Origin: an uncultured Eubacteriales bacterium
GTDB taxonomy: Bacteria > Acidobacteriota > Aminicenantia > Aminicenantales > Aminicenantaceae
DNA length: 64,000 nucleotides
Reading direction: 5' to 3'
NCBI GenBank assembly: GCA_964449165.1
Contig: CAYVAT010000013.1
Coordinates: forward strand, 407-64,406
Shown: positions 1 through 21,457 of the stretch, one piece after another
Position numbering within the stretch: position 1 is the stretch's first letter
How the letters are laid out: every line of letters starts with the position of its first letter
Notes under the pieces: generated by a model
Databases searched by the model: none
Told to the model about the DNA's origin: nothing
The model's input: only the letters and a program-made list of their open reading frames with translations
Position numbers and translations under genes: made by a program

Positions 1-1985
1 TGGGAATTACTCTAAAAGAGATTATTTATGATATTGGAGGCGGGATTCCCAAGGGAAAAAAATTTAAGGCAGTTCAGACCGGTGGACCATCAGGAGGCTG
101 TATCCCTGCAAGTCTGATTGATTTGCCAGTGGATTATGAAAAGTTGACTGAAGCCGGTTCCATAATGGGTTCCGGTGGAATGATTGTGATGGATGAAGAT
201 ACGTGTGTAGTGGATGTAGCGAAATATTTTATCGAGTTTACAAATGATGAATCCTGCGGAAAATGTTCATCCTGTAGAGAAGGCTCATCCCAACTCCTTG
301 AAATACTAAAAAAAATAACCAGGGGAGAAGGTGAAGAACAAGATCTTCAGACTTTGGAGGACCTCAGCCATGTGATAAAAGATACCTCAATGTGTGGATT
401 GGGTCAGACGCTGCCGAACCCGGTATTAAGCACATTGAAATATTTCATAAATGAATATATAGAACATATTAAATATAAAAGATGTTCTGCTTTAGTATGT
501 AAAGGTATAATTTCATCCGCCTGTCAGCATATATGTCCATTATCGCAGGATGTGCCCAGTTATATAGGGCTCATTGCTCAGGGAAAATTTGATGAAGCGA
601 TTAAAGTCGTAAGAAAAGAGAACCCATTACCCCTTATTTGCGGACGTGTATGTCATGCTCCTTGTGAAGAAAAGTGTGTAGCAGGGGAATGGGGTGATTC
701 CATAGCAATTAGATCGCTGAAACGTTTCCTCGCAGATTATGAGATGAAGAATGGGGTTATCATTGAAGAAAAACCGAAAAGTGAGAGAGCGGAGAAGATT
801 GCTGTGGTCGGTTCCGGTCCTGGAGGATTGACTTGTGCACATTACCTCGCCTTGGAGGGATATAAAGTTACTGTTTTTGAGAGTCAGGAAGTACCTGGAG
901 GCATGCTTGCGTTAGGCATCCCGGAATTCAGATTACCCAAGGGTGTATTGAAATATGAAATAGGCAGGATACGAAAATTAGGGGTTGAAATTAAAACAAA
1001 TACTACGATTGGGAAAGATATTCCGCTTGATAAGCTGAAAGAAGATTATAAGGCAATCTTCATTGCTGTCGGTGCCCACAAGGGTTTGAAGATGAAAGTC
1101 CCAGGTGAAGATTCTAAAGGAGTAATCGATGCGGTGGAATTCCTGAGGGATGTTAACCTGGGTCGCGAAGTAAAAATTGGGGATAAGGTTATAGTTATTG
1201 GTGGTGGAAATTCAGCCATAGATGCGGCTCGAGTAGTAAAACGAATGGGAAAGGACACGGAGATTTTATACCGAAGGACAAGAGCAGAGATGCCCGCTAT
1301 TAAGAGTGAAATCGAAGAAGCCATCATAGAGGGCATTGATATACAATTTCTCGCAGCTCCAGTTAAAGTTCTATCGAGCAATGGAAAAATGGAGGCTATA
1401 GAGGCTATCAGGATGGAACTAGGAGATGTAGATGCGAGCGGTAGAAGGCGCCCTGTTCCGATTGAGGGATCTGAATTTAAAATCAATGTGGATACTCTGA
1501 TCCTGGCCATAAGTCAGGAACCAGATGTGTCTTTATTGAATGGAAATGGATTGAATATTTCTAAGTGGAACACAATTGAAGTCGATCCTGAGACTCTTCA
1601 TACAAATATCGAGGGAGTATTTGCAGGTGGCGATGTGGTGACCGGCCCGAATACAGTAACCGAAGCCATGGCTCACGGAAAAGTTGGAGCTCAAATGATA
1701 GATAAATATATACGGGGAGATAAGCTGGAAAGAAAATACAAGGTGACTCGTCCGGCAGTCCGCGTTGAAGCCCTTGAGGTTGCAGAAGAAGAAATCAAAG
1801 AGCTCAAAAAACCTAAAATGCCATCGATGCCTATTGCTGAAAGGGTTAAGAGTTTCAAAGAAGTTGAATTGGGATTCACAGAAGCGGATGCGATTACTGA
1901 AGCGAAGCGTTGTCTCCGGTGTGATCTAGAAAGAGAAGAAGATAAAGCAGCAGAGAAAAAGAAGAATAACGAAGGGAAAAAATAA
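1..1985 (+). CDS. NuoF-like NAD(P)H-binding flavoprotein (C-terminal part) fused to a GltD-like FAD/NAD(P) oxidoreductase. It is 5'-partial: the reading frame is open from nucleotide 3.
   Basis: The frame opens upstream of the ORF-track Met: nt 3-122 translate to [35 protein letters not shown], the NuoF/HoxF FMN-NADH region. The [4Fe-4S] motif [12 protein letters not shown] and MCGLGQT are present. They are followed by a GltD-type Fe-S region ([13 protein letters not shown]) and a Rossmann motif [19 protein letters not shown]. Confidence 0.8.
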
Positions 1986-2085
1986 TGCTTCTTGAGATTG
2001 AAATTTTGGCATCTGATGACAAGAAGATACCAGGAATTGTAAACATAGAGAATTGTATTGAATGTGTTATAAGCGGAGGCTTGGC

Positions 2086-5000
2086 GTGATAGAGCTGACA
2101 ATAGATGGTAAGAAGAGTGAATTTCCTGAGGGTAAAACACTATTAGAATGTATTAAGAGTACTGGAATAAAGATACCGACTCTCTGTTATCATAAAGCTT
2201 TAACTCCATATGGAGCATGCAGATTATGTGTTGTAGAAGTGACTCAAGGCAACAGAACGGCAATTCAGGCTTCATGCACTTATCCGGCTATCAATGGTTT
2301 AATAGTGAACACCCATACTGAAAGAATAATAAAATCGAGAAAAATTATAGTTGAGCTATTATTAGCGAGATGCCCCGATTCAAAGGAGATACAGAAAATA
2401 GCAGAAGAATTGGGTGTAAAGGAAACACGGTTTAAGAAAAAAAATGAGGATTGTTTTCTTTGTGGCTTATGCGTGAGGATGTGTAATGAAAGGATGGGTA
2501 TCAGTGCAATCAATTTCGTTAATCGCGGTCCCCATAAGAAAGTAAGCCCGCCATTTGACGTGGTTTCTGATGTATGCCAGACATGTGGCGCCTGTGCTTT
2601 TATTTGTCCAACAGAAAGGATTAAACTCGAGGAAATCAGCAAGAATAAAGAAGTCCCCATATTGGATGAGTACAATGAAAGATTAATTAAAAGATCAGCT
2701 GCTTATATCCCATATCCTCAGGCTGTTCCTAATAAAGCTGTAATTGATGAGAGATATTGCGTACATATGCTTAAGGATGAATGTGGAGTCTGCAAAGAGT
2801 TTTGTGAAGCAGATGCAATTGATTATGAACAAAAAGAAAAGAAGAGTGAATTAAACGTCGGTGCAGTAGTTGTATCCCCAGGATTTGATATATTTGACGC
2901 AAAAATCAAGGAAGAATATGGATATGGATTATATCCAAATGTTGTTACGTCGCTTGAATTTGAAAGAATCTTATCTTCTACAGGGCCGTATCTCGGCAAA
3001 GTCTTAAGACCCAGTGATGGGACAAAGCCAAAAAGGATAGGATTTATTCAATGTGTCGGCTCGCGTGACATAGATCGGGATTATTGTTCCTCTGTATGCT
3101 GTATGTATGCGACAAAGGAAGCTATCATCGCTAAAGAGCATGCGGGTGAAGATTTAGAATGTGATATATTTTTTATGGACATGCGCGCATTCGGTAAAGG
3201 ATTTGATGCGTATTATCAAAGGGCAAAGGAACTTGGAGTAGATTATATCCGATGTCGTCCAGCTGCTGTGAAAGAAATTTCTCAAACAAAAAATCTTATA
3301 ATTGAGTATCTGATTGAAGATGATAAGAAAGTTTCTCGTGAATATGACATGGTTGTTCTATCTGTCGGTATAGTACCTCCAAAATCTGTAAAGGAAATTT
3401 CTGAAAAATTTGGCATCGAATTGAATGAATTTAACTTCTGTAAGACAGATCCATTTAGACCTGTTGAATCGACACGGGAGGGAATTTATACGTCAGGGCC
3501 TTTCACAGAGCCTAAAGATATACCTGAGACCATAATGCAAGCATCCGGAGCCTCATCAAAAGTTTTATCCCTTTTAAAAGACGTTAAAGGCAACTTAATA
3601 ACCCCAAAGGAATATCCGCCAGAAATAGATGTAGAAGGGCAGGAGCCAAGAATCGGAGTATTTATATGCCATTGCGGGACAAATATAGGCGGAGTGGTAA
3701 ATGTTCCAAGAGTCGTTGAATTTGCAAAAACACTTCCTAATGTTGTTTATGCAGAAGATAATTTATTTACCTGTTCAAATGATACTCAAAAAAAAATAAA
3801 AGAGAAAATAAAAGAACATAAGTTAAATCGTGTAGTCGTTGCTTCTTGTACGCCAAGGACTCACGAACCTCTATTCAGACATACAGTCCGGGAGGCGGGA
3901 CTAAACCCATATCTTTTTGAAATGGCGAATATCAGGGATCAATGCTCATGGATTCATATGCATGAACCTGAAAAAGCCACAGAGAAATCCAAAGACCTGG
4001 TGAGAATGACCGTAGCTAAATCAAGATTATTAGCACCTCTTCAAAAAATATCAGTACCAATAATAAAATCAGCGCTTGTTATCGGTGGCGGACTTTCTGG
4101 GATGACGTCTGCGCTTGAACTGGCAAGTCAAGGGTTTGATGTATATTTAGTGGAAAAAGAAAAAGAGCTGGGTGGAAATCTGAGACGTCTTCACTACTTA
4201 GTAACCGGAGAAAATCCGCAAGATGAGTTAAAAAAGCTTATTGAAAATGTAAAAAAGAATAAGAAAATCCATTTATATACAGAAGCCAGAATAGAAAAAT
4301 TTGAAGGTTCAATCGGAAATTTTAAAACAACTATTTCTTCAAAAGGAAAGTCAATAGAGCTTGGCCATGGTGTAGTGGTTGTTGCAACCGGTGCACAAGA
4401 ATATAAACCGAAAGAGTATTTATATGGTCAGCATGAAAGGGTTTTAACCCAACTCGAACTTGAAGAGCGCCTAAGCACAAACGGCGAGTGGTCAGCTCCA
4501 GATAAAAATCAAATGCCCAGGACCATTGTAATGATTCAATGCGTTGGCTCACGGGATGATGAAAGGCCTTATTGCTCAAGGGTTTGTTGTACAGAAGCTG
4601 TGAAGAACGCCTTAAAAATAAAAGAACTTTCACCTGAAGCATATATATATATATTGTACCGAGATATAAGAACTTATGGATTTAACGAAAGCTTCTATAC
4701 AGAAGCAAGGCGAAAGAACGTTGTATTCGTAAGGTATGATGAAGACCGGAAACCAGAAGTTTCAAAAAACGGAAACGGATTGCGGGTGGAAGTCTTTGAC
4801 CAGACTTTAAGGATGCCGATTGAGATATCTGCGGATTTAGTCGTGTTGTCAGCAGGAATAGTTCCAAATGATGACAGCGAAACAATTTCTCAATTTTTAA
4901 AAGTTCCTTTAAACACCGATGGATTTTTCCTTGAGGCACACATGAAGCTGAGACCGGTTGACTTTTCCACTGACGGTGTGTTTCTTGCGGGGATAGCCCA

Positions 5001-5352
5001 CAGCCCGAAGACGGTTTCAGAAAGCATTGCCCAGGCAGAGGCTGCCGCCTGCCGTGCAGCAGCAATTTTAAGCAAGGACGAGTATGAAACCGAGGCCACG
5101 ATTTCCTCGGTGAATGAAGAACTCTGTACCGGGTGCGGTACATGTGTCGAGGTATGCGAATTTGACACTCTTGAACTTGTCGAAACACCTGAGGGCGAGA
5201 TGGTATGCAGAGTGAATCAAGCGCTCTGCAAAGGCTGCGGCTGCTGCGCAGCGGCGTGCCCGAGCGGGGCGATCGAACAGAATGGCTTCAGGAGAGACCA
5301 GATCCTTTCAGCGGTTGATGCAGCAACAGCCTGGGGAGAAGAAAGTGGCTAA
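2086..5352 (+). CDS. Multidomain fusion: NuoG-like N-terminal 2Fe-2S/4Fe-4S domain, then a partial HdrA-like FAD segment, then a complete HdrA-like module (N-domain, FAD, C-terminal 2x[4Fe-4S]).
   Basis: The N-terminus TIDGKKSEFPEGKTLLECIKSTGIKIPTLCYH...GACRLCVV is NuoG/HydA-like, with Cys motifs CFLCGLCVRMC and CQTCGACAFICP. HdrA signatures QCVGSRD...YCSSVCC occur twice, plus GVFICHCGTNIGG, the dinucleotide motif VIGGGLSGM, and C-terminal CTGCGTCVEVCE / CKGCGCCAAACP. The likely start is GTG 2086 with a GGAGG 6 nt upstream; the ORF-track ATG 2062 is the alternative. Confidence 0.75.
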   Translation: MIELTIDGKKSEFPEGKTLLECIKSTGIKIPTLCYHKALTPYGACRLCVVEVTQGNRTAIQASCTYPAINGLIVNTHTERIIKSRKIIVELLLARCPDSKEIQKIAEELGVKETRFKKKNEDCFLCGLCVRMCNERMGISAINFVNRGPHKKVSPPFDVVSDVCQTCGACAFICPTERIKLEEISKNKEVPILDEYNERLIKRSAAYIPYPQAVPNKAVIDERYCVHMLKDECGVCKEFCEADAIDYEQKEKKSELNVGAVVVSPGFDIFDAKIKEEYGYGLYPNVVTSLEFERILSSTGPYLGKVLRPSDGTKPKRIGFIQCVGSRDIDRDYCSSVCCMYATKEAIIAKEHAGEDLECDIFFMDMRAFGKGFDAYYQRAKELGVDYIRCRPAAVKEISQTKNLIIEYLIEDDKKVSREYDMVVLSVGIVPPKSVKEISEKFGIELNEFNFCKTDPFRPVESTREGIYTSGPFTEPKDIPETIMQASGASSKVLSLLKDVKGNLITPKEYPPEIDVEGQEPRIGVFICHCGTNIGGVVNVPRVVEFAKTLPNVVYAEDNLFTCSNDTQKKIKEKIKEHKLNRVVVASCTPRTHEPLFRHTVREAGLNPYLFEMANIRDQCSWIHMHEPEKATEKSKDLVRMTVAKSRLLAPLQKISVPIIKSALVIGGGLSGMTSALELASQGFDVYLVEKEKELGGNLRRLHYLVTGENPQDELKKLIENVKKNKKIHLYTEARIEKFEGSIGNFKTTISSKGKSIELGHGVVVVATGAQEYKPKEYLYGQHERVLTQLELEERLSTNGEWSAPDKNQMPRTIVMIQCVGSRDDERPYCSRVCCTEAVKNALKIKELSPEAYIYILYRDIRTYGFNESFYTEARRKNVVFVRYDEDRKPEVSKNGNGLRVEVFDQTLRMPIEISADLVVLSAGIVPNDDSETISQFLKVPLNTDGFFLEAHMKLRPVDFSTDGVFLAGIAHSPKTVSESIAQAEAAACRAAAILSKDEYETEATISSVNEELCTGCGTCVEVCEFDTLELVETPEGEMVCRVNQALCKGCGCCAAACPSGAIEQNGFRRDQILSAVDAATAWGEESG

Positions 5353-5770
5353 GGAATTCGAACCCAGAATAGTGGCATTTCTTTGCAACTGGTGCTCGTA
5401 TGCTGGTGCAGATCTGGCTGGCGTCAGCAGGCTGCAGATGCCTCCCACATTCAGGGTTATCCGTGTGATGTGTTCGAGCCGCGTCGACCCGATGTTCGTG
5501 GTCAAAGCGTTTCTCGAAGGCGCTGACGGCGTGATCATGGCCGGATGCCTCCCGGGAGATTGTCACTACTTAAAGGGAAATTACTATGCGCGTCGAAGAT
5601 TTGCGGTTTTGAAAAAGACCTTTGAGAGTCTCGGATTGGAGCCTGAGCGTCTCCGGCTTTCGTGGGTTTCGGCCTCTGATGGACCGCGTTATGCGGAGGT
5701 CGTAAAAGAGTTCACAGAGGAAATACGAAAATTAGGACCTAGCCCGGCTCGTAGGGAAGTGTTTATCTAA
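5347..5770 (+). CDS. MvhD-like protein ([2Fe-2S] electron-transfer subunit of Mvh/Hdr complexes)
   Basis: FEPRIVAFLCNWCSYAGADLAG...RVMCSSRVDP...GCLPGDCHY is the MvhD signature. The start is uncertain: the ORF opens at 5282 and overlaps the upstream gene. GTG 5347 follows a GGGGAG, but ATG 5318 is also possible. Confidence 0.7.
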
Positions 5771-5872
5771 AGAAGACAGTATGTTAGGTCGAAAAAAGTA
5801 GTTCACAGGTTAAAGCAATAAAATTGGATATCGTGCCCATATTATTAAAAATTAAATAAGGAGAGAGAAAAG

Positions 5873-6229
5873 ATGGCAAAGATGGCAATTACATGCAATG
5901 GTTCGGCCGCACCGAATGTTTATCCGACCTTCATTCTCGGATCTTCAGCAGTGGCATCGGGTGATGAGGTAATCCTGTTCTTTACCCCGGGCGGAGCACC
6001 AGCCCTGGTGAAAGGCGAAATGGAGAAGATGCAGGACATAAAAGGGTACCCGAATTTGATTGAGCTGTACAATGGTATGGTCGAACTTGGGGCCAAAATC
6101 TACGCTTGCGAAATTTGCCTTGAGGCAAAGGATTTGAAGAAGGAAGACTTCAGGGAGGGAGTTGAGATCGTTGGGGCTACATCGTTTGTTAACGAGATTA
6201 AGGACGCGACAATTACGTTCTCGTTCTAG
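5873..6229 (+). CDS. DsrE/DsrF-like sulfur-relay family protein
   Basis: 118 aa of small alpha/beta protein with MAKMAITCNGS...ILFFTPGGAP...IYACEICLEAKDL. Size and conserved Cys context fit the DsrE/TusD family. A strong RBS, AAGGAGAGAG, lies upstream. Confidence 0.6.
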   Translation: MAKMAITCNGSAAPNVYPTFILGSSAVASGDEVILFFTPGGAPALVKGEMEKMQDIKGYPNLIELYNGMVELGAKIYACEICLEAKDLKKEDFREGVEIVGATSFVNEIKDATITFSF

Positions 6230-6264
6230 AGATCGATATAGGAAAATAAAAGGAGGAAGGAATA

Positions 6265-6486
6265 ATGGCTAATTATACGTTGGATACCCTAGGACTTAAA
6301 TGCCCACAGCCGGTTCTGAAGGTGGCTGTGAAGGCAAAGGAATTGCAGCCGGGAGACATGTTGGAGGTTATAGCCGACTGTGAGTCTTTTCCTAAAGATA
6401 TTGAGGCATGGTGCCAGAAGACAGGAAAGACGCTGCTTTTCTGTAATACAGAAGGTGGTAAACATACAGCACAGATTCAATTCTAG
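6265..6486 (+). CDS. TusA-like sulfurtransferase (SirA/YedF/YeeD family)
   Basis: 73 aa; LDTLGLKCPQPVLK carries the diagnostic CPxP motif of TusA-family sulfur carriers. RBS AAGGAGGAAGG lies upstream. Confidence 0.75.
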   Translation: MANYTLDTLGLKCPQPVLKVAVKAKELQPGDMLEVIADCESFPKDIEAWCQKTGKTLLFCNTEGGKHTAQIQF

Positions 6487-6606
6487 TTTTCAGTGATTGA
6501 TAGTTAGTAGCTAACAGGGATCGGATTCAGCCTTCCTGTCGGCTATTTCTATCAGCTTGTCGGAGTGGAGGCTGCATTGCCGGAGGAACAAGAAAAGGAA
6601 GAAAAG

Positions 6607-7026
6607 ATGAGCGAGGAATTTGAGCCGCGTATAGTTGCTTTTTTATGCAACTGGTGTTCGTATGCCGGTGCGGATGTGGCGGGTTCGAGCAAACTAGAGA
6701 TGCCGCCTACCATAACACCCGTGAAGGTAATGTGTTCGAGCCGGGTTGATCCGGTAATGGTGATCACAGCTTTTCTGCGCGGGGCCGACGGTGTGCTGAT
6801 TGCCGGATGTCATCCGGGAGATTGTCACTACGACAAAGGCAATTATTACGCGCGCAGGCGATTTGCGGTTTTAAGAGAAATTTTCAATACGCTTAGACTT
6901 GAAGGGGAGCGGTTGAGGCTTTCCTGGGTCTCCGCGTCGGAAGGACCGCGATACGCAGAGGTAGTGCGGGAGTTTTCCGAAAAGATCAAGCAGTTGGGCC
7001 CGAACCCTGTAAAACAGAAGACATAA
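6607..7026 (+). CDS. MvhD-like protein, second paralog
   Basis: MSEEFEPRIVAFLCNWCSYAGADVAG...VMCSSRVDP...GCHPGDCHY. The ORF-track start is GTG 6565; ATG 6607 with AAGGAAG upstream matches paralog N-termini better. Confidence 0.7.
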   Translation: MSEEFEPRIVAFLCNWCSYAGADVAGSSKLEMPPTITPVKVMCSSRVDPVMVITAFLRGADGVLIAGCHPGDCHYDKGNYYARRRFAVLREIFNTLRLEGERLRLSWVSASEGPRYAEVVREFSEKIKQLGPNPVKQKT

Positions 7027-7053
7027 AACACCTTCAGGTGCTGGAGAAAGACT

Positions 7054-8340
7054 ATGACTAAAAAACAGCAAGAGGCCAAGGATCAGGTTCTTGTGATCGG
7101 TGCGGGAATGGCCGGGATCGAGGCCAGCCTTACACTGGCCTCTGCCGACAAGAAGGTCTACCTCGTGGAGAAGGAACCGCTGTTCGGCGGAAAGGTTATC
7201 AAGTTCGAAGAAGTCTTTGCCAACATGGAATGCTCCACATGTATGGCAGCGCCGAAACAGCAAGAAGTGCTTCAGAATGAGAAGATCGAGTTGCTTACGC
7301 TCAGCAAGGTAAAAGAAGTTAAAGGAGAAGCGGGTAATTTTACTGTAAAGATTGAAAAAAAGGCAAGATACGTGAGCCTCGAGGACTGCATAGGCTGTAA
7401 CGAGTGTTTTGAACCCTGCCCGGTAAGTCTGCCCAATGAGTTCGAGGAGAACCTGGGTGAGAGAAAGGCTATATATATCCCCTGTCCCGGCGCGCTACCG
7501 AATGCCCCGTCGATAGATACAGATAATTGCGTGAGATTCACGAAGGGAGAAGATTGCCAGTTGTGCAAGGAAGCCTGCATGTTTGAGGCAATCGATTTCG
7601 ACCAGAAAGATGAAGAAGTGGAACTCAATGTTGGGGCCATAATTGTAGCTACAGGATTTGACCTTATGGATTCCGAGCAGATTTCTGACTGGGGTTACAA
7701 TGGCGAAGCGAACGTGTATACCGCACTTGAGATGGAAAGGTTGTATGCGTCGAACGGGCCAACTGCGGGAAAAATCATTTTAAGAAACAATAAAGAACCG
7801 GCATCCGCGGCAATGATTCACTGTGTGGGACGCGAAAAAGCGGGTTACTGTTCTGGCGTATGCTGTATGTACAGTTTCAAGTTTATTCATTACTTGAAAG
7901 ACAAACTGCCGGAAATAAAACTGTATGATGTCTACAGCGACTTTTGTATGCCAGGCAAGAGCTATCAGCCATTTTTCGAGCATTTGAAAGATAAAACAGA
8001 GTCGGTTCGGTTCCAAGATCTGAAAATCGTGCATCAGAACGGTAAAGTACGGATCAAATATAAATCCTTGGCAGGCAAGGAGGAAAAACTGGATGTAGAT
8101 ATGGTGATTCTTGCACCCGCTATCGTGCCCGCCAAGGGGGCATCGGAATTGGCCAAGAAACTGGGCATTGAACAAACTGAGAGCGGATTTTTTGGTTTTC
8201 AATCGAGTGACCGTTCACCGGAGGAGAGCGGCCGTGAGGGGATTTATCTTGCGGGGTGTGTTCTCGGGCCCGAAGACATTGGCAGAGCAATTGCCCAGGC
8301 CGAGGCAGCGGCAGGGAAAGTACTTGCATTGCTTAGTTGA
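7054..8340 (+). CDS. HdrA-like flavoprotein, central module: FAD domain with inserted 2x[4Fe-4S] ferredoxin, lacking the HdrA N- and C-terminal domains
   Basis: VLVIGAGMAGIEASL, FEEVFANMECSTCM, CIGCNECFEPCP, CQLCKEAC, IHCVGREKAGYCSGVCCMY. It is collinear with residues ~140-560 of the canonical HdrA at 15747-17669. Confidence 0.75.
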   Translation: MTKKQQEAKDQVLVIGAGMAGIEASLTLASADKKVYLVEKEPLFGGKVIKFEEVFANMECSTCMAAPKQQEVLQNEKIELLTLSKVKEVKGEAGNFTVKIEKKARYVSLEDCIGCNECFEPCPVSLPNEFEENLGERKAIYIPCPGALPNAPSIDTDNCVRFTKGEDCQLCKEACMFEAIDFDQKDEEVELNVGAIIVATGFDLMDSEQISDWGYNGEANVYTALEMERLYASNGPTAGKIILRNNKEPASAAMIHCVGREKAGYCSGVCCMYSFKFIHYLKDKLPEIKLYDVYSDFCMPGKSYQPFFEHLKDKTESVRFQDLKIVHQNGKVRIKYKSLAGKEEKLDVDMVILAPAIVPAKGASELAKKLGIEQTESGFFGFQSSDRSPEESGREGIYLAGCVLGPEDIGRAIAQAEAAAGKVLALLS

Positions 8341-8355
8341 GCGAAGAGGAGTGTA

Positions 8356-10038
8356 ATGGAGAAGAAGAGCGTAATGGATAGGAAAATCGGCGTTTATGTT
8401 TGTGAATGCGGGCCGAACATAGCAGATGCTCTGGATATAGACAGGGTTATCGAAGCTGTGTCGGGCATGGAGAATGTCGCTGTTATCGATAGGTATAAAC
8501 TCCTGTGCTCCCCGGACGGGAAGAAATACCTTGCCGAGCAGATAAAAGAACATGGGCTGACACACTTGGTGGTTGGAGCGTGTTCCCCAAAACAGCATGA
8601 AGCGACTTTTATGGGCGTATGTAAAGAAGGTGGGATGAATCCTTTCCTGATGCAGATGGCCAATCTTCGAGAGCAGATCGCATGGATAACTCCAGACAAA
8701 GAAAAAGCTACCGAACGGGCGATCAGGCACATGAAAGCGGCTGTTCGACGTGTCCGGTATCACGCGCCGTTGGAACAAAAAGAAATTGAATGTAATGCAG
8801 ATGTGCTGGTCATAGGTGGAGGTATAGCGGGAATGTCGGCAGCCCTGCTGCTGAGCAGTCCGGACCGAAAAGTGTTTCTAGTCGAAAAGAATACAGAACT
8901 CGGAGGAATGGTTTCAAGATACGAGAAGCTCTTTCCGGATATGATCAGAGGCAGTGAGATTACGGAAAGGCGCGTCAAGAGCTTGAAAGAAGACGATAAT
9001 ATCGAGGTGCTAACAGGTACAAAAGTGGAGAAAATCCTCGGCTTTTTCGGAAACTTTGTAGTTACTGTCCGCGAAGGAGAATCCGAACCTCGAGAGTTTA
9101 AAGTGGGAGCTGTTGTAGTGGCCACAGGTGCAGACCTTTTCGATCCCGGTACCCTGGAGGAATACGCGTACGGGAAGATAAAAAATGTTGTTACTGCCCC
9201 CGAGGTTGAAGAAATGAATCTGAAAGGAAACATTAAGCTCGAAAACGGAAAAGAACCGAAAAGTGTTGGGATTATTCATTGCGTTGGTCGGAAAGAGAAA
9301 GGGTACTGCTCAGAGGTGTGCTGCAGAGCGGGGATGAAGATATCGCGCTATCTGAAAGAAAAGATTCCGGCCGTTTCAATAAAGCATTTTTATCAGGATC
9401 TCTGTGTTCCGGGCTCTGGAGCGCAGGCGTTCTACGAGGAGACCCGGGATGCGGGGGCGGAGTTTGTCTGCACAGATACAGTTAAACTGAAGGAGTCCGA
9501 TAAAAATATCAAAATAGATCACGACGGTAAAGTTGATACAGTAGACATGGCGGTCCTTCTGCCCGCAATAGAACCGGCAGAAGACACTTCTGATATTTCC
9601 GAAATGCTCGGTGTTGAAAAGGGAAAGGGAGGATTTCTTACGGAAGAACACGAGAAGATAAGCCCGGTCACTACAACCGTCGAAGGAGTATGCCTGGCCG
9701 GGTCTGTTTCAGGACCAAAAACCGTACGTGACGCCGTGTCCCAGTCAGAAGCTGCAGCGGGGAAGATACTTTCCTCATTGGTGCCGGGTCGAAAACTGGA
9801 AACAGAAGCCAAGACTTCGAAAATATTCGAGAATTTGTGTACGGGCTGTAGAACTTGTCTGACGGTATGCTGTTACAGCGCAATCGAGTATGATGAATCG
9901 AGAGGAGTTTGTGTGGTTAATGAGGTGCTCTGCAAGGGATGCGGGAATTGCGCAGCAGCTTGCCCCTCTGGAGCGGCAATGCATCAGCAATTTACACCAA
10001 AACAAATCTACAGGGAAGTGATAGAGATATTGCGATGA
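8356..10038 (+). CDS. HdrA-like flavoprotein with N-terminal Cys domain and C-terminal 2x[4Fe-4S], but no inserted ferredoxin domain
   Basis: IGVYVCECGPNI...LLCSPDG...VGACSPKQ; VLVIGGGIAGMSAAL; IHCVGRKEKGYCSEVCC; C-terminal CTGCRTCLTVCC and CKGCGNCAAACPSG. RBS GAGGAG lies upstream. Confidence 0.75.
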   Translation: MEKKSVMDRKIGVYVCECGPNIADALDIDRVIEAVSGMENVAVIDRYKLLCSPDGKKYLAEQIKEHGLTHLVVGACSPKQHEATFMGVCKEGGMNPFLMQMANLREQIAWITPDKEKATERAIRHMKAAVRRVRYHAPLEQKEIECNADVLVIGGGIAGMSAALLLSSPDRKVFLVEKNTELGGMVSRYEKLFPDMIRGSEITERRVKSLKEDDNIEVLTGTKVEKILGFFGNFVVTVREGESEPREFKVGAVVVATGADLFDPGTLEEYAYGKIKNVVTAPEVEEMNLKGNIKLENGKEPKSVGIIHCVGRKEKGYCSEVCCRAGMKISRYLKEKIPAVSIKHFYQDLCVPGSGAQAFYEETRDAGAEFVCTDTVKLKESDKNIKIDHDGKVDTVDMAVLLPAIEPAEDTSDISEMLGVEKGKGGFLTEEHEKISPVTTTVEGVCLAGSVSGPKTVRDAVSQSEAAAGKILSSLVPGRKLETEAKTSKIFENLCTGCRTCLTVCCYSAIEYDESRGVCVVNEVLCKGCGNCAAACPSGAAMHQQFTPKQIYREVIEILR

Positions 10039-11117: not shown

Positions 11118-11155
11118 ATGGTCTGTGACCGGCCGCGCATGCTTGGAGACTTGAA

Positions 11156-12265
11156 ATGACTAAGATGTTGAAAATAGATAAAGCGATTTCAGACGGGACC
11201 AGAGATTTTCTGCGCTATCTTCTGGACAGCAAGAACGTGCGTAGTGTGGCAGTGCTGAGGAGAGATAGGACGTCTGGCTGGGTCAGCTACAGCCTGATCT
11301 CTGATCCGGAAAAGATAGAGGAAGCGGTCCCTTTTTCTCCGGTCATGCCATACAACGCGGGTGAGTATCTCTCTCGCCTCACATCCAAGGGACCGTTCGA
11401 TAAGCCTGTTGCGGTGGTATTGCGTCCATGCGAACAGCGAGCGTTTGTGGAGCTTGTAAAACGACAGCAGGGCAGTTTGGACAATATCATAACAATCAGT
11501 TCGGTTTGTCCGGGAGTTTATCCTTTGAAAACATTTGTTCGTGAGAACGAGGACAAGCTGTTTAAGGATTACTGGTCGGTGGTAGCTGATGGAAAACAAC
11601 CTGAGGGGATCCGGGACACGTGTTCGTTCTGTGAGCATTTTGTTCCGGCTGAAGCCGACATTGTCATACCCATAGCAGGCGAGAAGGATACGGGCAAAGA
11701 ATGCAAATTGTTCGCGAATACCGAAAAGGGAGCTGAACTACTGAAGGGGATAGATGGGAAAATACAGGAATCTGAACTGGAGACAAAAGGAACCGAAGCT
11801 ATCCGGCAGTTGCGGAAGGAAAACGAAGAAAAGATGCTGGCCGATCTGGGGAAAAAGTTATCGGGATTAGATGGGCTGGTAGAAATGTTCAGTACGTGCA
11901 TTGGCTGTCATGGATGTCGGTCGGTTTGCCCGATTTGTTACTGCCGCTTATGTGAATTTGATTCTTCTCGAAGTGAATACGAGGCACGAAAATATGAAAT
12001 CGAACTGCGCAAGAAGGGGGGCGTAAGAATACCCCCGGGCTCCATAGCCTTTCAGATAGGTCGGATGATCCATATAGGCCTTTCCTGTGTGAGCTGCGGG
12101 ATGTGTAGCGACGTGTGTCCCGCCGATATCCCGGTTGCAAATATTTTCAGGAAAGCGGGAAAGGCGGTCCAGGATGTGTTCGAATACATTCCTGGAAAGG
12201 ACCTTGAGGATAGTATCCCTGTCACGACATTTGAAGAAGAGGAATTGAGAAGTGTTGAGGATTAA
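11156..12265 (+). CDS. FrhB/FdhB/FpoF-family protein, paralog 2
   Basis: RPCEQRAFVELVK; CIGCHGCRSVCPICYCRLC; CVSCGMCSDVCPADIP. It aligns with paralog 1 throughout. Confidence 0.65.
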   Translation: MTKMLKIDKAISDGTRDFLRYLLDSKNVRSVAVLRRDRTSGWVSYSLISDPEKIEEAVPFSPVMPYNAGEYLSRLTSKGPFDKPVAVVLRPCEQRAFVELVKRQQGSLDNIITISSVCPGVYPLKTFVRENEDKLFKDYWSVVADGKQPEGIRDTCSFCEHFVPAEADIVIPIAGEKDTGKECKLFANTEKGAELLKGIDGKIQESELETKGTEAIRQLRKENEEKMLADLGKKLSGLDGLVEMFSTCIGCHGCRSVCPICYCRLCEFDSSRSEYEARKYEIELRKKGGVRIPPGSIAFQIGRMIHIGLSCVSCGMCSDVCPADIPVANIFRKAGKAVQDVFEYIPGKDLEDSIPVTTFEEEELRSVED

Positions 12266-12729: not shown

Positions 12730-12786
12730 TTTTGAAGACGGGAAATATCAATCCACAGTAATGAGCGTGAAGAGATCGAAATATTT

Positions 12787-14250: not shown

Positions 14251-14329
14251 TTTATCTCCCTTTTCCTCAAAGTGATGTAAATTGTCTTATAAACTTAACA
14301 AACAATAAAAAATTGCTCCAAGCATTCAT

Positions 14330-15310: not shown

Positions 15311-15348
15311 AATTGCCTCCTTCTAAAATAGACATCATTTCTACTTAT

Positions 15349-17669: not shown

Positions 17670-17733
17670 CGTTCCTCCTTATTATTTGAATTTTGACACT
17701 CCTCAATTGCGGCCATCTTCTGTATTTAATTAT

Positions 17734-17755: not shown

Positions 17756-17763
17756 GGGAATAA

Positions 17764-21357: not shown

Positions 21358-21457
21358 CTATAAATGAAATGAGATGACTAATTCCAATAGGATAGTCACT
21401 GTCGCCAAAGCTGTCCTGGTGGAAATTGACTAAAAAAACAAAAATTGGAGGTTAACA

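What the first reader, a model, noticed from the sequence alone, without database searches (positions are those of the whole stretch)
5347..7026. DsrE-like and TusA-like genes sandwiched between two MvhD paralogs
MvhD normally bridges a hydrogenase to HdrA. Here two MvhD copies (5347-5770 and 6607-7026) flank the DsrE-like/TusA-like pair with ~100-nt and ~120-nt gaps, and both sulfur-carrier genes have strong RBSs. That tight linkage suggests the sulfur carriers are stoichiometric partners of an MvhD-HdrA electron path rather than chance neighbours. TusA is a known hub for persulfide trafficking. Coupling it to an Hdr-type bifurcation module would be a new route for sulfur reduction or oxidation in an anaerobe.
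Basis: partly seen in the sequence, partly recalled or inferred. Interest (0 to 1): 0.75.

Follow-up and report, generated by a model that had tools for sequence, protein, structure and literature searches.

The report
Sulfur-carrier pair wired to Hdr electron-bifurcation genes
Two small sulfur-carrier genes (DsrE-like and TusA-like) head a gene cluster for a heterodisulfide-reductase-type electron-splitting enzyme. The cluster recurs in the same gene order in about 60 uncultured anaerobic bacterial and archaeal species, which suggests the carriers are the enzyme's unknown sulfur substrate or shuttle.

Summary
The genes are MvhD (5345-5770), DsrE-like (5873-6229), TusA-like (6265-6486) and MvhD (6607-7026). 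All pass Pfam thresholds, both carrier genes have strong ribosome-binding sites, and the catalytic cysteines are invariant.

The linkage is not chance. I fetched 80 loci, one per GTDB species, from many bacterial phyla and from Thermoplasmata archaea.
- TusA follows DsrE in 68 of 73 loci.
- An HdrA gene lies within 5 kb in 62 of 69.
- 40 of 53 keep the full order dsrE-tusA-mvhD-hdrA'-hdrA''-elpB'-elpB''.

The module carries two mvhD genes. The second usually sits at the 3' end. Only in the window's lineage and in Dehalococcoidia does it sit upstream of dsrE. The "sandwich" is therefore a permutation, not the conserved feature.

hdrA' and hdrA'' have complementary domains and should form a heterodimer. 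The two downstream Fe-S proteins are ElpB/FdhB-type flavoproteins. The core module has no HdrBC.

My best reading is inferred, not shown. DsrE and TusA would present protein-bound sulfane sulfur or a disulfide as the electron-accepting substrate of these HdrA-MvhD complexes.

The closest known system is the DsrE/TusA-fed sulfur-oxidising sHdr system. This architecture differs from it, and I found no description of it in the searchable literature.

The parts
3..1985 (+). NuoF (C-terminal part)::GltD/NfnB-like NAD(P)H oxidoreductase. The gene is cut by the window start and belongs to the upstream NAD(P)H-linked Hdr module.
   Evidence: The reading frame is open from base 3. Pfam NADH_4Fe-4S, Fer4_20 and Pyr_redox_2. 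The full-length homologue in L003 is 1024 aa, has Complex1_51K, and is preceded by hdrC-hdrB-nuoE-like genes.
2062..5352 (+). 1096-aa fusion: NuoG/HoxU-like N-terminus (2Fe-2S and 4Fe-4S) joined to a duplicated HdrA.
   Evidence: Pfam Fer2_4 and Pyr_redox_2; NCBIfam HdrA2 887 bits in 3 stretches; HoxU/NuoG match at residues 10-191.
5345..5770 (+). MvhD #1 (FlpD, [2Fe-2S] electron connector). Its start overlaps the stop of the HdrA fusion. It is probably the module's second MvhD, moved to the 5' side.
   Evidence: PF02662 E = 1e-55. 72% identical to MvhD#2. Five invariant cysteines. Upstream and terminal MvhD are mutually exclusive across loci. Profile scores against the 'a' and 'b' types are ambiguous, 241.9 vs 242.8 bits.
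5873..6229 (+). DsrE-like sulfur carrier, 118 aa, with a single invariant Cys79. It belongs to a compact clade of PF13686 whose nearest relatives are DsrE2B and DsrE3A.
   Evidence: Pfam. PDB profile hits: 2qs7 E = 5e-11, 3mc3 E = 6e-10. AF2 model pLDDT 97. Foldseek 2qs7 TM 0.84 and 30% identity. Cys79 present in 41 of 41 orthologues.
6265..6486 (+). TusA-family sulfur carrier, 73 aa. It has the CPQP active cysteine (C13) plus two further near-invariant cysteines (C39, C60).
   Evidence: PF01206 E = 2e-19. Invariant columns. Cysteine frequencies. 76-97% identity among the 120 best database homologues, whose source names span several phyla; median 73% identity to the window across the GTDB loci. 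AF2 model pLDDT 86 with beta-alpha-beta-alpha-beta-beta topology.
6497..6555 (+). Long RNA hairpin just after the tusA stop, with no T-tract. It could be an mRNA-stabilising or processing element that uncouples carrier and enzyme expression levels.
   Evidence: Centroid fold. Homologous hairpins in L001 and L002 have z = -4.5 and -5.9. 11 of 40 loci have z < -2. One A-U to G-C compensatory change against L001/L002.
6607..7026 (+). MvhD #2, the conserved 'a-type' MvhD that follows tusA in most loci.
   Evidence: PF02662 E = 1e-51. Scores 260 bits against the a-type profile and 236 against the b-type. Follows TusA in 57 of 71 loci.
7054..8340 (+). HdrA' (428 aa): FAD/thioredoxin-reductase domain with the inserted ferredoxin domain. 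[quoted passage not shown]
   Evidence: NCBIfam HdrA2 positions 133-560. Alignment to HdrA structures places C60/C63 on the C-x-x-C that contains Cys197. Conserved cysteines.
8356..10038 (+). HdrA'' (560 aa): N-terminal Fe-S domain, FAD domain without the inserted ferredoxin domain, and C-terminal ferredoxin domain. It lacks the Cys197 equivalent, so it is the complementary partner of HdrA'.
   Evidence: NCBIfam HdrA matches 6-239 and 312-639, skipping the inserted domain. Conserved cysteines. The complementarity rule comes from PMC9012536.
10035..11117 (+). ElpB/FdhB-like flavo-iron-sulfur protein #1 (FrhB family).
   Evidence: PDB hits: 9t1s_M E = 7e-32, 8rvu_E E = 3e-28, 7bkb_E E = 6e-20. 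15 invariant cysteines.
11156..12265 (+). ElpB/FdhB-like flavo-iron-sulfur protein #2, a paralogue of #1.
   Evidence: PDB hits: 9t1s_M E = 3e-34, 8rvu_E E = 9e-31. Pfam FrhB_FdhB_C E = 2e-8.
12262..17669 (-). Convergent operon hdrA-mvhD-mvhG-mvhA-hycI. It encodes a group 3c [NiFe] hydrogenase with its own HdrA and MvhD, a likely H2 input or output for the same electron network.
   Evidence: The ORF translations are recognisable as a [NiFe]-hydrogenase large subunit, small subunit, MvhD and HdrA; no profile search was run on these ORFs. MvhD#3 is 57% identical to MvhD#2. Homologues of these five window proteins lie next to dsrE-tusA in L005, L011 and L021.
17767..18041 (-). ArsR-family regulator with two cysteines, heading the minus-strand hdrA-mvh operon. 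It is homologous to the ArsR gene found directly upstream of dsrE in 12 related loci.
   Evidence: phmmer E = 9e-13 against the L007 ArsR. Sequence. Alignment shows cysteines at the same two positions.

Best explanation
The DsrE-like and TusA-like proteins are a dedicated sulfur-relay, or thiol-redox carrier, pair for cytoplasmic HdrA-MvhD flavin-based electron-bifurcating complexes in strict anaerobes.

In the window they head a module that should assemble as follows:
- an HdrA'/HdrA'' heterodimer, with one bifurcating FAD path and one ferredoxin-reducing branch;
- two MvhD [2Fe-2S] connectors;
- two ElpB/FdhB-type flavoproteins that exchange hydride with a soluble cofactor.

The proposed mechanism has four steps.
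1. Sulfane sulfur from polysulfide, thiosulfate or organic persulfide is picked up as a Cys-persulfide on DsrE Cys79.
2. It is passed to TusA Cys13. There it might be held as a di- or trisulfide bridge with Cys39, analogous to the DsrC trisulfide.
3. The Hdr complex reduces this protein-bound sulfur or disulfide to H2S plus free thiols. This provides the high-potential electron-accepting branch that CoM-S-S-CoB provides in methanogens.
4. The low-potential branch reduces ferredoxin. Electrons come from H2 (neighbouring MvhAG), NAD(P)H (upstream NuoF::GltD-HdrA module) or a deazaflavin- or NAD(P)H-type hydride donor at ElpB.

Shown: gene identities, invariant cysteines, the domain complementarity of the two HdrA paralogues, and conserved co-oriented synteny across phyla and domains.

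Inferred: physical interaction, the chemical form of the bound sulfur, the direction of electron flow, and which subunit reduces the carrier. That subunit could be HdrB where one is present, or otherwise one ElpB-MvhD arm taking the place of HdrBC.
For: 1. Synteny in 80 loci, one per GTDB species. TusA follows DsrE in 68 of 73. MvhD or an HdrA::MvhD fusion comes next in 62 of 71. The full six-gene order is kept in 40 of 53. Median intergenic gaps are 3-78 nt.
2. The partner set varies but always contains HdrA and MvhD.
   - (i) mvhD-hdrA'-hdrA''-elpB'-elpB''-mvhD.
   - (ii) hdrA::mvhD-hdrC-hdrB, with or without a fumarate-reductase-like pair (L027, L028, L029, L050).
   - (iii) hdrA-mvhD-mvhGA (L005, L011, L021).
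   In type (ii) the carriers sit directly in front of a canonical HdrABC.
3. In L003, a close relative of the window (86% DsrE identity), hdrC-hdrB heads the upstream module.
4. The carriers are more conserved than the enzymes. Mean pairwise identity is 72.5% for TusA and 68.6% for DsrE, against 50-58% for HdrA'/HdrA''/ElpB. Their distance matrices correlate with those of the enzymes (r about 0.7).
5. Invariant cysteines: DsrE C79; TusA C13, C39 and C60.
6. Neighbours in related loci point to inorganic or reactive sulfur:
   - YeeE/YedE sulfur transporter in 5 loci;
   - ArsR-type two-cysteine regulator directly upstream of dsrE in 12 loci, with a homologue in the window at 17767-18041;
   - CsoR-family two-cysteine regulator lacking the Cu-ligand His in 6 Dehalococcoidia loci;
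   - Cys/Met PLP enzyme in 8 loci.
7. The structural logic has precedent. ElpB/FdhB passes electrons through MvhD/ElpC to HdrA (PMC12350162). Tandem HdrA paralogues with complementary Cys197 and N-terminal domain form heterodimers (PMC9012536; checked here).
8. DsrE3A and TusA physically interact and transfer sulfur next to Hdr-like genes in sulfur oxidisers (PMC4175335).
Against: - There is no direct evidence of interaction or catalysis.
- The majority module has no HdrB/CCG subunit, which is the only known disulfide-reducing site of Hdr enzymes. None is encoded in the 64-kb window. The carrier-reducing site is therefore unknown.
- S0/H2S (about -270 mV, from general knowledge) is a much weaker 'high-potential' acceptor than CoM-S-S-CoB. 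Bifurcation from NAD(P)H would not be driven. It would be feasible only from H2 or a low-potential donor, or the system may run in reverse.
- Four loci (L019, L034, L059, L072) have this DsrE clade with no Hdr homologue detected in the fetched flanks; L019 and L072 keep TusA next to DsrE, and only L019's neighbours were scanned with Pfam.
- The window from 18 to 44 kb shows a saccharolytic, hydrogen-sensing fermenter with no other sulfur-metabolism genes.
- Proximity of TusA C13 and C39 is inferred from fold topology only.
- Most loci come from MAGs, many taxon labels are unreliable, and the counts are not phylogenetically independent.
Confidence: 0.45

Rival explanations
1. Reactive-sulfur (persulfide/polysulfide) detoxification. 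The same carriers and Hdr-type complex reduce intracellular sulfane sulfur to H2S as a homeostatic or stress response. This would not be an energy-conserving bifurcation branch, and expression would be switched on by persulfide-sensing repressors.
For: An ArsR-type two-cysteine regulator (12 loci plus the window) and a CsoR-family two-cysteine regulator lacking the His ligand (6 loci) sit next to the module. These are the two families that contain known persulfide sensors such as BigR/SqrR and CstR (from memory). [quoted passage not shown] The host looks like a fermenter, not a sulfur respirer.
Against: An eight-gene, cluster-rich bifurcation-type machine with two flavoprotein arms is elaborate for detoxification, since simple NAD(P)H persulfide or polysulfide reductases exist. 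The module is tightly linked to hydrogenase, NAD(P)H and fumarate-reductase energy modules. The sensing chemistry of the regulators is untested.
Confidence: 0.2
2. Biosynthetic sulfur supply. DsrE and TusA deliver sulfur for assembly or repair of the many Fe-S clusters (or another sulfur cofactor) of the Hdr complex. They would be maturation factors, not substrates.
For: [quoted passage not shown] An IscU/NifU_N-like gene lies near the module in 6 loci, in three of them right after the terminal mvhD. The encoded proteins carry dozens of cluster-ligand cysteines.
Against: No cysteine desulfurase is a conserved neighbour. Canonical Mvh-Hdr operons need no such carriers. The carriers sit at the 5' end, have the strongest ribosome-binding sites and are more conserved than the enzymes. 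That pattern is typical of abundant substrates or shuttles. YeeE transporters and thiol-type regulators point to external or reactive sulfur.
Confidence: 0.12
3. Oxidative direction, as in sHdr. The carriers feed sulfane sulfur into the Hdr-like complex for oxidation (to sulfite or thiosulfate), or for sulfur disproportionation, and the electrons reduce ferredoxin, NAD(P)+ or protons.
For: The only experimentally studied DsrE/TusA-Hdr association is the sulfur-oxidising sHdr system (PMC4175335, PMC11094781). [quoted passage not shown] YeeE occurs in 5 related loci.
Against: The defining sHdr parts are absent from the module and the window: hdrC1B1-hyp-hdrC2B2 and lipoate-binding LbpA (no unassigned ORF remains in the operon). 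MvhD and ElpB/FdhB-type subunits and the domain-complementary tandem HdrA pair are parts described for bifurcating Hdr complexes or proposed for bifurcation/confurcation; no MvhD appears in the sHdr core gene set. No sulfite-handling genes are nearby. The hosts are mostly sediment fermenters.
Confidence: 0.1
4. Neighbours without a shared function. This would be genomic hitch-hiking or a lineage-specific accident, or the carriers would serve selenium trafficking for HdrA/MvhD, which are selenoproteins in some organisms.
For: A few loci carry the pair without Hdr genes. The TusA-like protein also matches YedF selenium-metabolism models weakly, at 36.6 bits. HdrA and MvhD are selenoproteins in some organisms (PMC13188914).
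Against: Order and orientation are conserved in about 60 species across many phyla and in archaea, with short gaps. The HdrA and MvhD proteins here use Cys, not Sec. Sec insertion is co-translational and needs no adjacent carrier.
Confidence: 0.03

Closest known systems
sHdr (sulfur-oxidising heterodisulfide-reductase-like) system with DsrE3/TusA/LbpA. Examples: Metallosphaera cuprina dsrE3A-dsrE2B-tusA next to hdrC1B1A-hyp-hdrC2B2; Hyphomicrobium denitrificans; Aquifex.
   Same: A DsrE-family protein and a TusA-family protein are encoded side by side, directly adjacent to genes for an Hdr-type complex that contains an HdrA flavoprotein. The DsrE protein belongs to the same PF13686 branch: its closest structures are SSO1126 (DsrE2B) and SSO1125 (DsrE3A). 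The carriers have the equivalent active-site cysteines.
   Different: The core module has no HdrB1/B2 (CCG) or HdrC1/C2, no 'hyp' protein and no lipoate-binding LbpA. It has two MvhD, a domain-complementary HdrA'/HdrA'' pair and two ElpB/FdhB-like flavoproteins, none of which occur in sHdr. The DsrE has one conserved cysteine, not the C-X7-C of DsrE3A. The TusA has two extra invariant cysteines. The hosts are anaerobic fermenter-type uncultured lineages, not sulfur oxidisers.
Mvh/Fdh/Elp-HdrABC flavin-based electron-bifurcating complexes of methanogens (PDB 5ODC, 7BKB, 8RVU).
   Same: HdrA with FAD and the same cluster-ligand cysteines. MvhD as the [2Fe-2S] connector. An ElpB/FdhB-type FAD and 4x[4Fe-4S] subunit as a hydride-cofactor entry point (E = 1e-28 to 1e-34 against these chains). 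A group 3c MvhAG hydrogenase is encoded next door.
   Different: The module has no HdrBC. Its HdrA is split into two complementary paralogues, and the ElpB-like subunit is duplicated. There is no ElpA or FdhA. The hosts are not known or expected to make CoM/CoB (inference; not tested here). The module is preceded by sulfur-carrier genes, which are not part of the methanogen Mvh-, Fdh- or Elp-Hdr complexes described in the papers read here.
Tandem or heterodimeric HdrA clusters with FdhB/FrhB-only partners in ANME-1 (Chadwick et al. 2022), and QmoAB of sulfate reducers.
   Same: Two adjacent HdrA paralogues, one with the N-terminal domain but no Cys197 and the other with Cys197 but no N-terminal domain. 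They are associated with MvhD and, in ANME-1, with FdhB homologues and no FdhA.
   Different: The ANME paper appeared in neither the DsrE+MvhD nor the TusA+MvhD full-text search, so it appears not to mention either carrier. Qmo has a membrane QmoC and works with AprAB, and neither is present here. The gene order and the duplicated ElpB/MvhD are specific to this module.
DsrC, the 'bacterial heterodisulfide' of Dsr-based sulfur metabolism (general knowledge).
   Same: Conceptually, a small protein whose cysteines carry a di- or trisulfide that an Hdr-type (CCG) enzyme reduces. The TusA here has a second and a third invariant cysteine that could play the same role.
   Different: There is no sequence or fold relationship. 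No DsrAB or DsrMK is present. The redox role of these cysteines is untested.
YTD (YedE-TusA-DsrE) clusters of sulfur disproportionators, also called DsrEFH type II.
   Same: TusA and a DsrE-like gene are adjacent. A YeeE/YedE transporter gene accompanies the pair in 5 of the related loci.
   Different: The window has no YedE and no two conserved hypothetical (DsrF/H-like) partners. YTD clusters are not linked to HdrA/MvhD.

Membership tests
DsrE/DsrF/DsrH-like superfamily (Pfam PF02635 / PF13686) | Profile match above the curated gathering score | tested here: met
   PF13686 56.1 bits (cut-off 25); PF02635 39.9 bits (cut-off 22.7).
DsrE/DsrF/DsrH-like superfamily (Pfam PF02635 / PF13686) | DsrE fold | tested here: met
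   AF2 model pLDDT 97. Foldseek: 2qs7 TM 0.84, 3mc3 0.77, DsrEFH 2hy5 0.77, YchN 0.81.
DsrE/DsrF/DsrH-like superfamily (Pfam PF02635 / PF13686) | Conserved active-site cysteine at the DsrE position | tested here: met
   C79 is invariant (18 of 18; 41 of 41). It aligns with the cysteine in 'KVFACSTT' of 2qs7 and 'KMYVCVQS' of 3mc3.
DsrE3A (thiosulfonate carrier, prototype Mcup_0681) | Two conserved cysteines in a Cys-X7-Cys motif (PMC4175335) | tested here: not met
   Only C79 is conserved. The window's C82 occurs in 2% of orthologues, and no cysteine lies 8 residues downstream.
DsrE2 (NCBIfam NF047629 equivalog) / DsrE2A | Score above the equivalog cut-off; DsrE2A has two strictly conserved cysteines | tested here: not met
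   48 bits against a cut-off of 210, matching the C-terminal half only. The family has one conserved cysteine.
DsrE2B (prototype Mcup_0682 / SSO1126) | Clade membership by phylogeny; genetic link to Dsr or Hdr systems | tested here: inconclusive
   The closest solved structure is SSO1126 (30% identity; E = 5e-11, against 6e-10 for the DsrE3A structure). The link to Hdr genes is met. No reference-based tree could be built, because no reference sequences were available.
DsrEFH / TusBCD heterohexamer | Adjacent DsrF/TusC and DsrH/TusB paralogues | tested here: not met
   There is a single DsrE-like gene in the window and in nearly all loci (L063 has two).
TusA family (PF01206) | Profile match above cut-off and the Cys-Pro-X-Pro motif | tested here: met
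   69.7 bits (cut-off 28.6). K-C-P-Q-P is invariant.
E. coli-type TusA (NF001423 equivalog) / YedF | Score above the equivalog cut-off | tested here: not met
   TusA 46.3 bits against 78; YedF 36.6 bits against 79.
MvhD/FlpD (PF02662) | Profile match; conserved cysteine ligands | tested here: met
   187 and 174 bits. Five invariant cysteines in both module copies.
sHdr sulfur-oxidation system | Core hdrC1B1A-hyp-hdrC2B2 with CCG-domain HdrB subunits | tested here: not met
   No CCG/HdrB or HdrC homologue was found in six-frame translations of the whole window. Gene-by-gene Pfam and NCBIfam scans of 1-12.3 kb found none.
sHdr sulfur-oxidation system | Lipoate-binding protein LbpA encoded with the cluster | tested here: inconclusive
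   Every + strand ORF from 3 to 12265 is assigned to another family, so no unassigned ORF remains in the operon. No LbpA/GcvH profile was run on the rest of the window.
Canonical HdrABC-MvhADG | HdrB and HdrC encoded with HdrA; homodimeric four-domain HdrA | tested here: not met
   The module has none. HdrA is split into complementary HdrA' and HdrA''. HdrCB is present upstream in relative L003 and adjacent in L027, L028, L029 and L050.
Elp-Hdr (F420H2-dependent donor module) | ElpB/FdhB-type subunit plus an MvhD-type connector | tested here: met
   E = 9e-31 and 3e-28 against 8rvu_E. Two MvhD genes are present.
Elp-Hdr (F420H2-dependent donor module) | ElpA (truncated FdhA) present; F420 as the cofactor | not testable with these tools
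   No FdhA- or ElpA-like ORF is in the module. Cofactor specificity cannot be read from the sequence here.
QmoABC | Membrane QmoC subunit and linkage to aprAB | tested here: not met
   No such ORFs are in or next to the module. All module ORFs are assigned otherwise.
YTD cluster | YedE-like transporter and two conserved hypothetical proteins next to tusA-dsrE | tested here: not met
   No YeeE homologue is in the window. One is present in 5 of 80 related loci.

The most novel reading that the evidence does not exclude
The TusA/DsrE pair would be the physiological 'heterodisulfide' of non-methanogenic HdrA-MvhD complexes. This would be a protein-borne persulfide, disulfide or trisulfide, possibly bridging TusA C13 and C39. 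Its reduction would pull flavin-based electron bifurcation in many uncultured sediment and subsurface lineages, including Aminicenantes, WOR-3, TA06, Cloacimonadota, Marinimicrobia, Dehalococcoidia and Thermoplasmata. In the HdrBC-less majority module, a second MvhD-ElpB arm would replace HdrBC as the high-potential exit. This would define a new class of bifurcating sulfur (persulfide) reductase and a hidden sulfur sink or source in anoxic sediments.
Probability: 0.3. Interest if true: 0.85.

Novelty: new variant of a known kind. Interest (0 to 1): 0.68.

Why it matters
HdrA/MvhD-type bifurcation modules are widespread outside methanogens, and what they reduce in place of CoM-S-S-CoB is largely unknown (general knowledge; DsrC is the proposal for sulfate reducers).

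This locus, and about 60 syntenic loci from abundant but uncultured anaerobic lineages, place a highly conserved DsrE/TusA pair at the head of such modules. That gives a concrete, testable candidate substrate or shuttle.

If the carriers are the electron-accepting partner, many 'fermentative' sediment bacteria and archaea would couple hydrogen, NAD(P)H or ferredoxin metabolism to cryptic reduction, or turnover, of zero-valent sulfur. This would bear on sulfur cycling, on hydrogen budgets and on annotation, because the two genes are currently labelled 'predicted peroxiredoxin' and 'tRNA 2-thiouridine synthesizing protein A'.

It also extends the known DsrE/TusA-Hdr partnership from aerobic and microaerobic sulfur oxidisers (sHdr) to a mechanistically different, MvhD-containing enzyme family.

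Tried and rejected
- **Promoter and terminator scan of 1-12.8 kb.** The hit counts equal the shuffle expectation and nothing lies in the two gaps. This says nothing about co-transcription, because the host's promoter type is unknown.
- **Rfam search of 5000-7300 at E <= 1.** No hits.
- **Redox-active CxxC in HdrA'.** I considered whether C60/C63 could be the site that reduces the carrier. I rejected this. C63 aligns with Cys197 of M. wolfeii HdrA, a ligand of the partner subunit's N-terminal [4Fe-4S] cluster.
- **Orthology of MvhD#1.** I tried to decide whether it is the orthologue of the 3'-terminal MvhD by scoring it against a-type and b-type profiles. The result was ambiguous, 241.9 vs 242.8 bits. 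The mutual-exclusion table is the better evidence.
- **Distance between TusA C13 and C39.** I wanted to measure it in the AF2 model, but model coordinates are not exposed to the scripting environment.
- **Literature.** Eight full-text searches combined DsrE, TusA, MvhD, HdrA, Qmo, Aminicenantes, COG2210 and sulfurtransferase. None found a paper describing this module. The key review on HdrA(BC) module diversity (Appel et al. 2021) and the TusA review (Tanabe et al. 2019) are not in the held library, so prior mention there cannot be excluded.
- **Overall fold of the 131-nt tusA-mvhD gap.** It is not significant by z-score (-1.0). Only the central hairpin and its relatives stand out.
- **Host taxonomy.** It was not resolved. 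The closest named homologues are from Chitinispirillaceae, and many MAG labels ('uncultured Eubacteriales') are unreliable.

Full report
**1. What is at the coordinates**

The + strand from base 3 to 12265 is one uninterrupted run of co-oriented genes:
- A NuoF::GltD-like NAD(P)H oxidoreductase, cut by the window start.
- A 1096-aa NuoG-like::double-HdrA fusion (2062-5352).
- MvhD#1. Its GTG at 5345 overlaps the fusion's stop codon, and it ends at 5770.
- A DsrE-like gene (5873-6229).
- A TusA-like gene (6265-6486).
- MvhD#2 (6607-7026).
- Two HdrA paralogues (7054-8340 and 8356-10038).
- Two paralogous Fe-S proteins (10035-11117 and 11156-12265).

A convergent hdrA-mvhD-mvhG-mvhA-hycI operon follows on the minus strand (12262-17669).

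All four genes of the finding exceed their Pfam gathering scores:

| Gene | Pfam family | E-value |
|---|---|---|
| MvhD#1 | FlpD | 1e-55 |
| MvhD#2 | FlpD | 1e-51 |
| DsrE-like | DrsE_2 | 5e-15 |
| DsrE-like | DsrE | 5e-10 |
| TusA-like | TusA | 2e-19 |

The two flanking MvhD proteins are 72% identical.

**2. The carriers**

The DsrE-like protein is a compact 118-aa member of the PF13686 branch.
- A profile built from 18 homologues finds the Sulfolobus DsrE2B structure (2qs7, E = 5e-11) and the DsrE3A structure (3mc3, E = 6e-10) as the closest solved relatives. C79 lies on their active-site cysteine.
- An AlphaFold model (pLDDT 97) superposes on 2qs7 with TM 0.84 and 30% identity, and also on DsrEFH and YchN.
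- It therefore fails the C-X7-C definition of DsrE3A and the two-cysteine definition of DsrE2A (definitions from PMC4175335).
- It scores 48 bits against the 210-bit cut-off of NCBI's DsrE2 model.
- I treat it as an unclassified, DsrE2B-like clade.

The TusA-like protein has an invariant K-C-P-Q-P motif. Unusually, it also has two further near-invariant cysteines: C39, inside an invariant motif A-D-C-x-S-F-P, and C60. By my own hand alignment with the E. coli TusA sequence recalled from memory, C39 falls where that protein has an Asp of its 'ADDP' motif; this is a lead, not a tool result. The model gives the TusA beta-alpha-beta-alpha-beta-beta fold. In that fold C13 lies in the beta1-alpha1 loop and C39 in the beta2-alpha2 loop, and these loops are neighbours.

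Both proteins are strikingly conserved. The 120 best database homologues of TusA, whose source names span several phyla, are 76-97% identical to it. Sources mostly label the two genes 'predicted peroxiredoxin' and 'tRNA 2-thiouridine synthesizing protein A'.

**3.

A scan of one genome per GTDB species with the DsrE alignment returned 99 hits, of which 80 loci were kept. By record title they come from Aminicenantes/Acidobacteriota, WOR-3, TA06, Cloacimonadota, Neomarinimicrobiota, Fidelibacterota, Fibrobacterota, Planctomycetia, Aerophobetes, Fermentibacteraceae, Dehalococcoidia and Thermoplasmata archaea. Many labels are unreliable.

I annotated the loci with the window's proteins:

| Feature | Loci with the feature / loci with enough sequence |
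|---|---|
| TusA directly follows DsrE | 68 / 73 |
| MvhD follows TusA | 57 / 71 |
| HdrA::MvhD fusion follows TusA | 5 more of the 71 |
| HdrA homologue within 5 kb | 62 / 69 |
| Full order dsrE-tusA-mvhD-hdrA'-hdrA''-FeS1-FeS2 | 40 / 53 |
| Those full-order loci ending with a second mvhD | 32 / 39 |

Of the seven loci without an HdrA homologue within 5 kb, three are truncated or interrupted. Four (L019, L034, L059, L072) have no Hdr homologue detected in the fetched flanks; only L019's neighbours were scanned with Pfam. Median intergenic distances in the module are 3-78 nt, and the tusA-mvhD gap is the longest.

An mvhD immediately upstream of dsrE, as in the window, occurs in only 11 of 71 loci. 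It is mutually exclusive with the 3'-terminal mvhD: 30 loci have only the terminal copy, 5 only the upstream copy, 1 has both and 2 have neither (Fisher p = 2e-4). These counts are not phylogenetically independent. The window itself has the upstream copy and no terminal copy.

So the conserved rule is two MvhD genes per module. MvhD#1 may also serve the upstream HdrA fusion, to which it is translationally coupled.

**4. What the module encodes**

- HdrA' (428 aa) covers HdrA positions 133-560. It has the FAD domain and the inserted ferredoxin domain.
- HdrA' carries an invariant C-x-x-C (C60/C63). C63 aligns with Cys197 of M. wolfeii HdrA. HdrA'' has the four N-terminal cluster cysteines but no Cys197 equivalent.
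- Chadwick et al. (PMC9012536) described exactly this complementarity for tandem HdrA genes in ANME archaea. They argued that it enforces a heterodimer, because Cys197 of one subunit ligates the N-terminal [4Fe-4S] cluster of the other on the path to ferredoxin.
- The two downstream proteins are not HdrC-like, as first suspected. They are FrhB-family flavo-Fe-S proteins. Their best PDB matches are the FdhB/ElpB chains of the Fdh-Hdr and Elp-Hdr supercomplexes (9t1s_M, 8rvu_E, 7bkb_E; E = 1e-20 to 3e-34).

The module thus has the parts for an HdrA'A'' heterodimer with two MvhD-ElpB arms. It has no HdrBC. No CCG protein is encoded anywhere in the window.

**5. Variants that bear on function**

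The DsrE-TusA pair is not tied to the ElpB-type module as such. It is tied to HdrA and MvhD.
- L027, L028, L029 and L050 have dsrE-tusA-hdrA::mvhD-hdrC-hdrB. In L027 and L028 a fumarate-reductase-like FrdBA pair follows, and fumarase and malic enzyme genes flank the cluster.
- L005, L011 and L021 put the pair next to hdrA-mvhD-mvhGA.
- L003 is 86% identical in DsrE to the window. It shows that the window's upstream module begins with hdrC-hdrB-nuoE-like genes. The window's operon therefore probably starts upstream of base 1 with an HdrBC-containing, NAD(P)H-linked complex.

Other recurrent neighbours, most of them consistent with inorganic or reactive sulfur:
- A YeeE/YedE sulfur transporter in 5 loci. 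In two of them it lies directly after dsrE-tusA.
- A 90-aa ArsR-family regulator with two conserved cysteines, directly upstream of dsrE, in 12 loci.
- A divergent CsoR-family regulator in 6 Dehalococcoidia loci. It has two conserved cysteines but lacks the His found four residues before the second cysteine in Cu-sensing CsoR. That pattern is CstR-like, but this is my recollection of the fingerprints and only a lead.
- Cys/Met PLP enzymes in 8 loci.
- An IscU-like gene in 6 loci.

The window itself has a homologue of the ArsR regulator, with cysteines at the same two positions, at 17767-18041 (-). It heads the convergent hdrA-mvh operon.

**6. Co-inheritance**

Across the window plus the 40 full loci, mean pairwise identity falls in this order: TusA 72.5%, DsrE 68.6%, MvhD 68.5%, HdrA' 58.3%, HdrA'' 56.9%, ElpB-like 49-50%. 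The carriers' distance matrices correlate with those of the enzymes (Mantel r = 0.64-0.74, p = 0.001). Shared phylogeny alone would give some correlation. Still, the same gene order occurs in Thermoplasmata archaea and in many bacterial phyla at 55-75% DsrE identity. That means the carriers travel with the enzyme genes as one unit.

**7. How it most likely works**

*Shown:* gene identities, invariant cysteines, HdrA domain complementarity, ElpB/FdhB homology and conserved synteny.

*Established elsewhere:*
- DsrE-type proteins and TusA carry sulfane sulfur or thiosulfonate on their active cysteines, interact physically and pass sulfur on (PMC4175335).
- MvhD connects donor modules to HdrA (PMC12350162).
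- HdrA bifurcates electrons between ferredoxin and a higher-potential acceptor reached through HdrBC.

*Inferred:* the DsrE/TusA pair provides that acceptor. It would be protein-bound persulfide sulfur or a protein di- or trisulfide, possibly between TusA C13 and C39, analogous to DsrC. It would be reduced by HdrB where HdrBC is encoded. In the HdrBC-less majority module it would be reduced through the second MvhD-ElpB arm.

The main weaknesses are these:
- The majority module has no known disulfide-reducing site.
- The redox potential of S0/H2S is modest.
- There is no experimental datum of any kind.

The rivals are a detoxifying persulfide reductase under thiol-sensing repressors, biosynthetic sulfur supply for Fe-S assembly, and an oxidative or disproportionating role as in sHdr. 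None is excluded. Chance co-location is effectively excluded.

**8. Comparison with known systems and novelty**

The partnership of DsrE/TusA with an Hdr-like complex is already known from sulfur oxidisers (sHdr; PMC4175335, PMC11094781). The idea of coupling these carriers to Hdr is therefore not categorically new.

This module fails the defining sHdr features. It has no HdrB1/B2/C1/C2 and no LbpA. It carries MvhD, a heterodimeric HdrA pair and ElpB/FdhB-type subunits, which are parts described for methanogen Hdr complexes and for ANME gene clusters proposed to bifurcate or confurcate electrons.

Eight full-text searches found no paper that links DsrE or TusA with MvhD/HdrA modules in anaerobes. 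Two relevant subscription reviews could not be read.

I classify it as a new variant of a known kind. It is widespread, with at least about 60 species-level genomes in this sample. It also offers a testable answer to what Hdr-type bifurcating complexes reduce in organisms that are not known to make CoM/CoB.

**9. Side observation on expression**

A roughly 59-nt hairpin lies immediately after tusA (6497-6555).
- Stronger homologues occur in the two closest relatives (z = -4.5 and -5.9).
- One A-U to G-C compensatory change separates the window from them.
- 11 of 40 related loci with a 40-300-nt gap have a hairpin with z < -2.
- No T-tract follows in the window, and no terminator-like site was called there.

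This fits co-transcription with differential mRNA stability, giving more carrier than enzyme. It argues, weakly, against strict stoichiometry.

Noticed in passing
window 6497-6555 (+); L001, L002 and others: A long hairpin lies directly after the tusA stop codon. It is conserved in the closest relatives with one compensatory A-U to G-C change. Unrelated strong hairpins sit at the same position in 11 of 40 loci. No T-tract follows in the window.
   Followed up: partly
window 17767-18041 (-): A 91-aa ArsR-family regulator with two cysteines ('NEGCSV', 'VEVCYKV') heads the convergent hdrA-mvhD-mvhG-mvhA-hycI operon. It is homologous (E = 9e-13) to the ArsR gene found directly upstream of dsrE in 12 related loci. 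It may be a thiol- or persulfide-sensing repressor.
   Followed up: partly
L037, L038, L040, L042, L043, L061 (about 0.9 kb upstream of dsrE, opposite strand): A CsoR/RcnR-family repressor (PF02583) has two conserved cysteines and no His at the Cu-ligand position. This is CstR-like (from memory), so it may be a second, unrelated type of persulfide sensor next to the same module.
   Followed up: partly
L025 10638-11837; L072 9425-10459; L063 8773-9810; L073 17833-18849; L069 831-2255: YeeE/YedE 'sulphur transport' genes (PF04143) lie next to or inside the DsrE-TusA-Hdr module. Four of these five loci (L025, L063, L069, L073) carry a second TusA copy.
   Followed up: partly
L027 7791-18546 (similar in L028); L066, L070, L074, L077 upstream regions: dsrE-tusA-hdrA::mvhD-hdrC-hdrB is followed by fumarate-reductase-like FrdB/FrdA and flanked by fumarase, succinyl-CoA ligase and malic enzyme genes. 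Other loci carry FrdAB plus two 2-oxoacid:ferredoxin oxidoreductase sets upstream. This is reminiscent of thiol:fumarate reductase logic.
   Followed up: partly
window 3-5352 (+); L003 294-9448: The upstream module is an unusual NAD(P)H-linked Hdr. It comprises NuoF fused to a GltD/NfnB-like domain (about 1024 aa when complete) and a NuoG/HoxU-like N-terminus fused to a duplicated HdrA (1096 aa). In relative L003 it is preceded by hdrC-hdrB and two NuoE-like genes.
   Followed up: partly
window 8356-10038 (HdrA'' residues 108 and 450): The window's HdrA'' has Ile108 and Ser450 where 93% and 85% of orthologues have Cys. Two otherwise conserved cysteines are therefore missing in this lineage.
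   Followed up: no
window 18351-25968: A regulatory cluster lies beside the Hdr/Mvh island. It contains a PAS histidine kinase with a sigma-54 response regulator, a further response regulator, and a sensory-type [FeFe]-hydrogenase-like protein (24086-25462, -; Fe_hyd_lg_C plus 'Putative Fe-S cluster') flanked by HATPase and PHP-domain genes. This may be H2-responsive regulation.
   Followed up: no
window 4001-12000 versus 2001-4000 and 12001-20000: G+C is 0.45-0.49 over the DsrE-TusA-Hdr module, against 0.38-0.43 in the adjacent Hdr fusion and Mvh genes. This would fit lateral acquisition of the module. However, other parts of the window also reach 0.49-0.52.
   Followed up: no
L015, L018, L045 (upstream); L008, L022, L024, L030, L036 (downstream); L007, L015, L045 (after the terminal mvhD): Cys/Met-metabolism PLP enzymes (PF01053) and IscU/NifU_N-like genes recur within a few kb of the module in Aminicenantes-type loci.
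   Followed up: no
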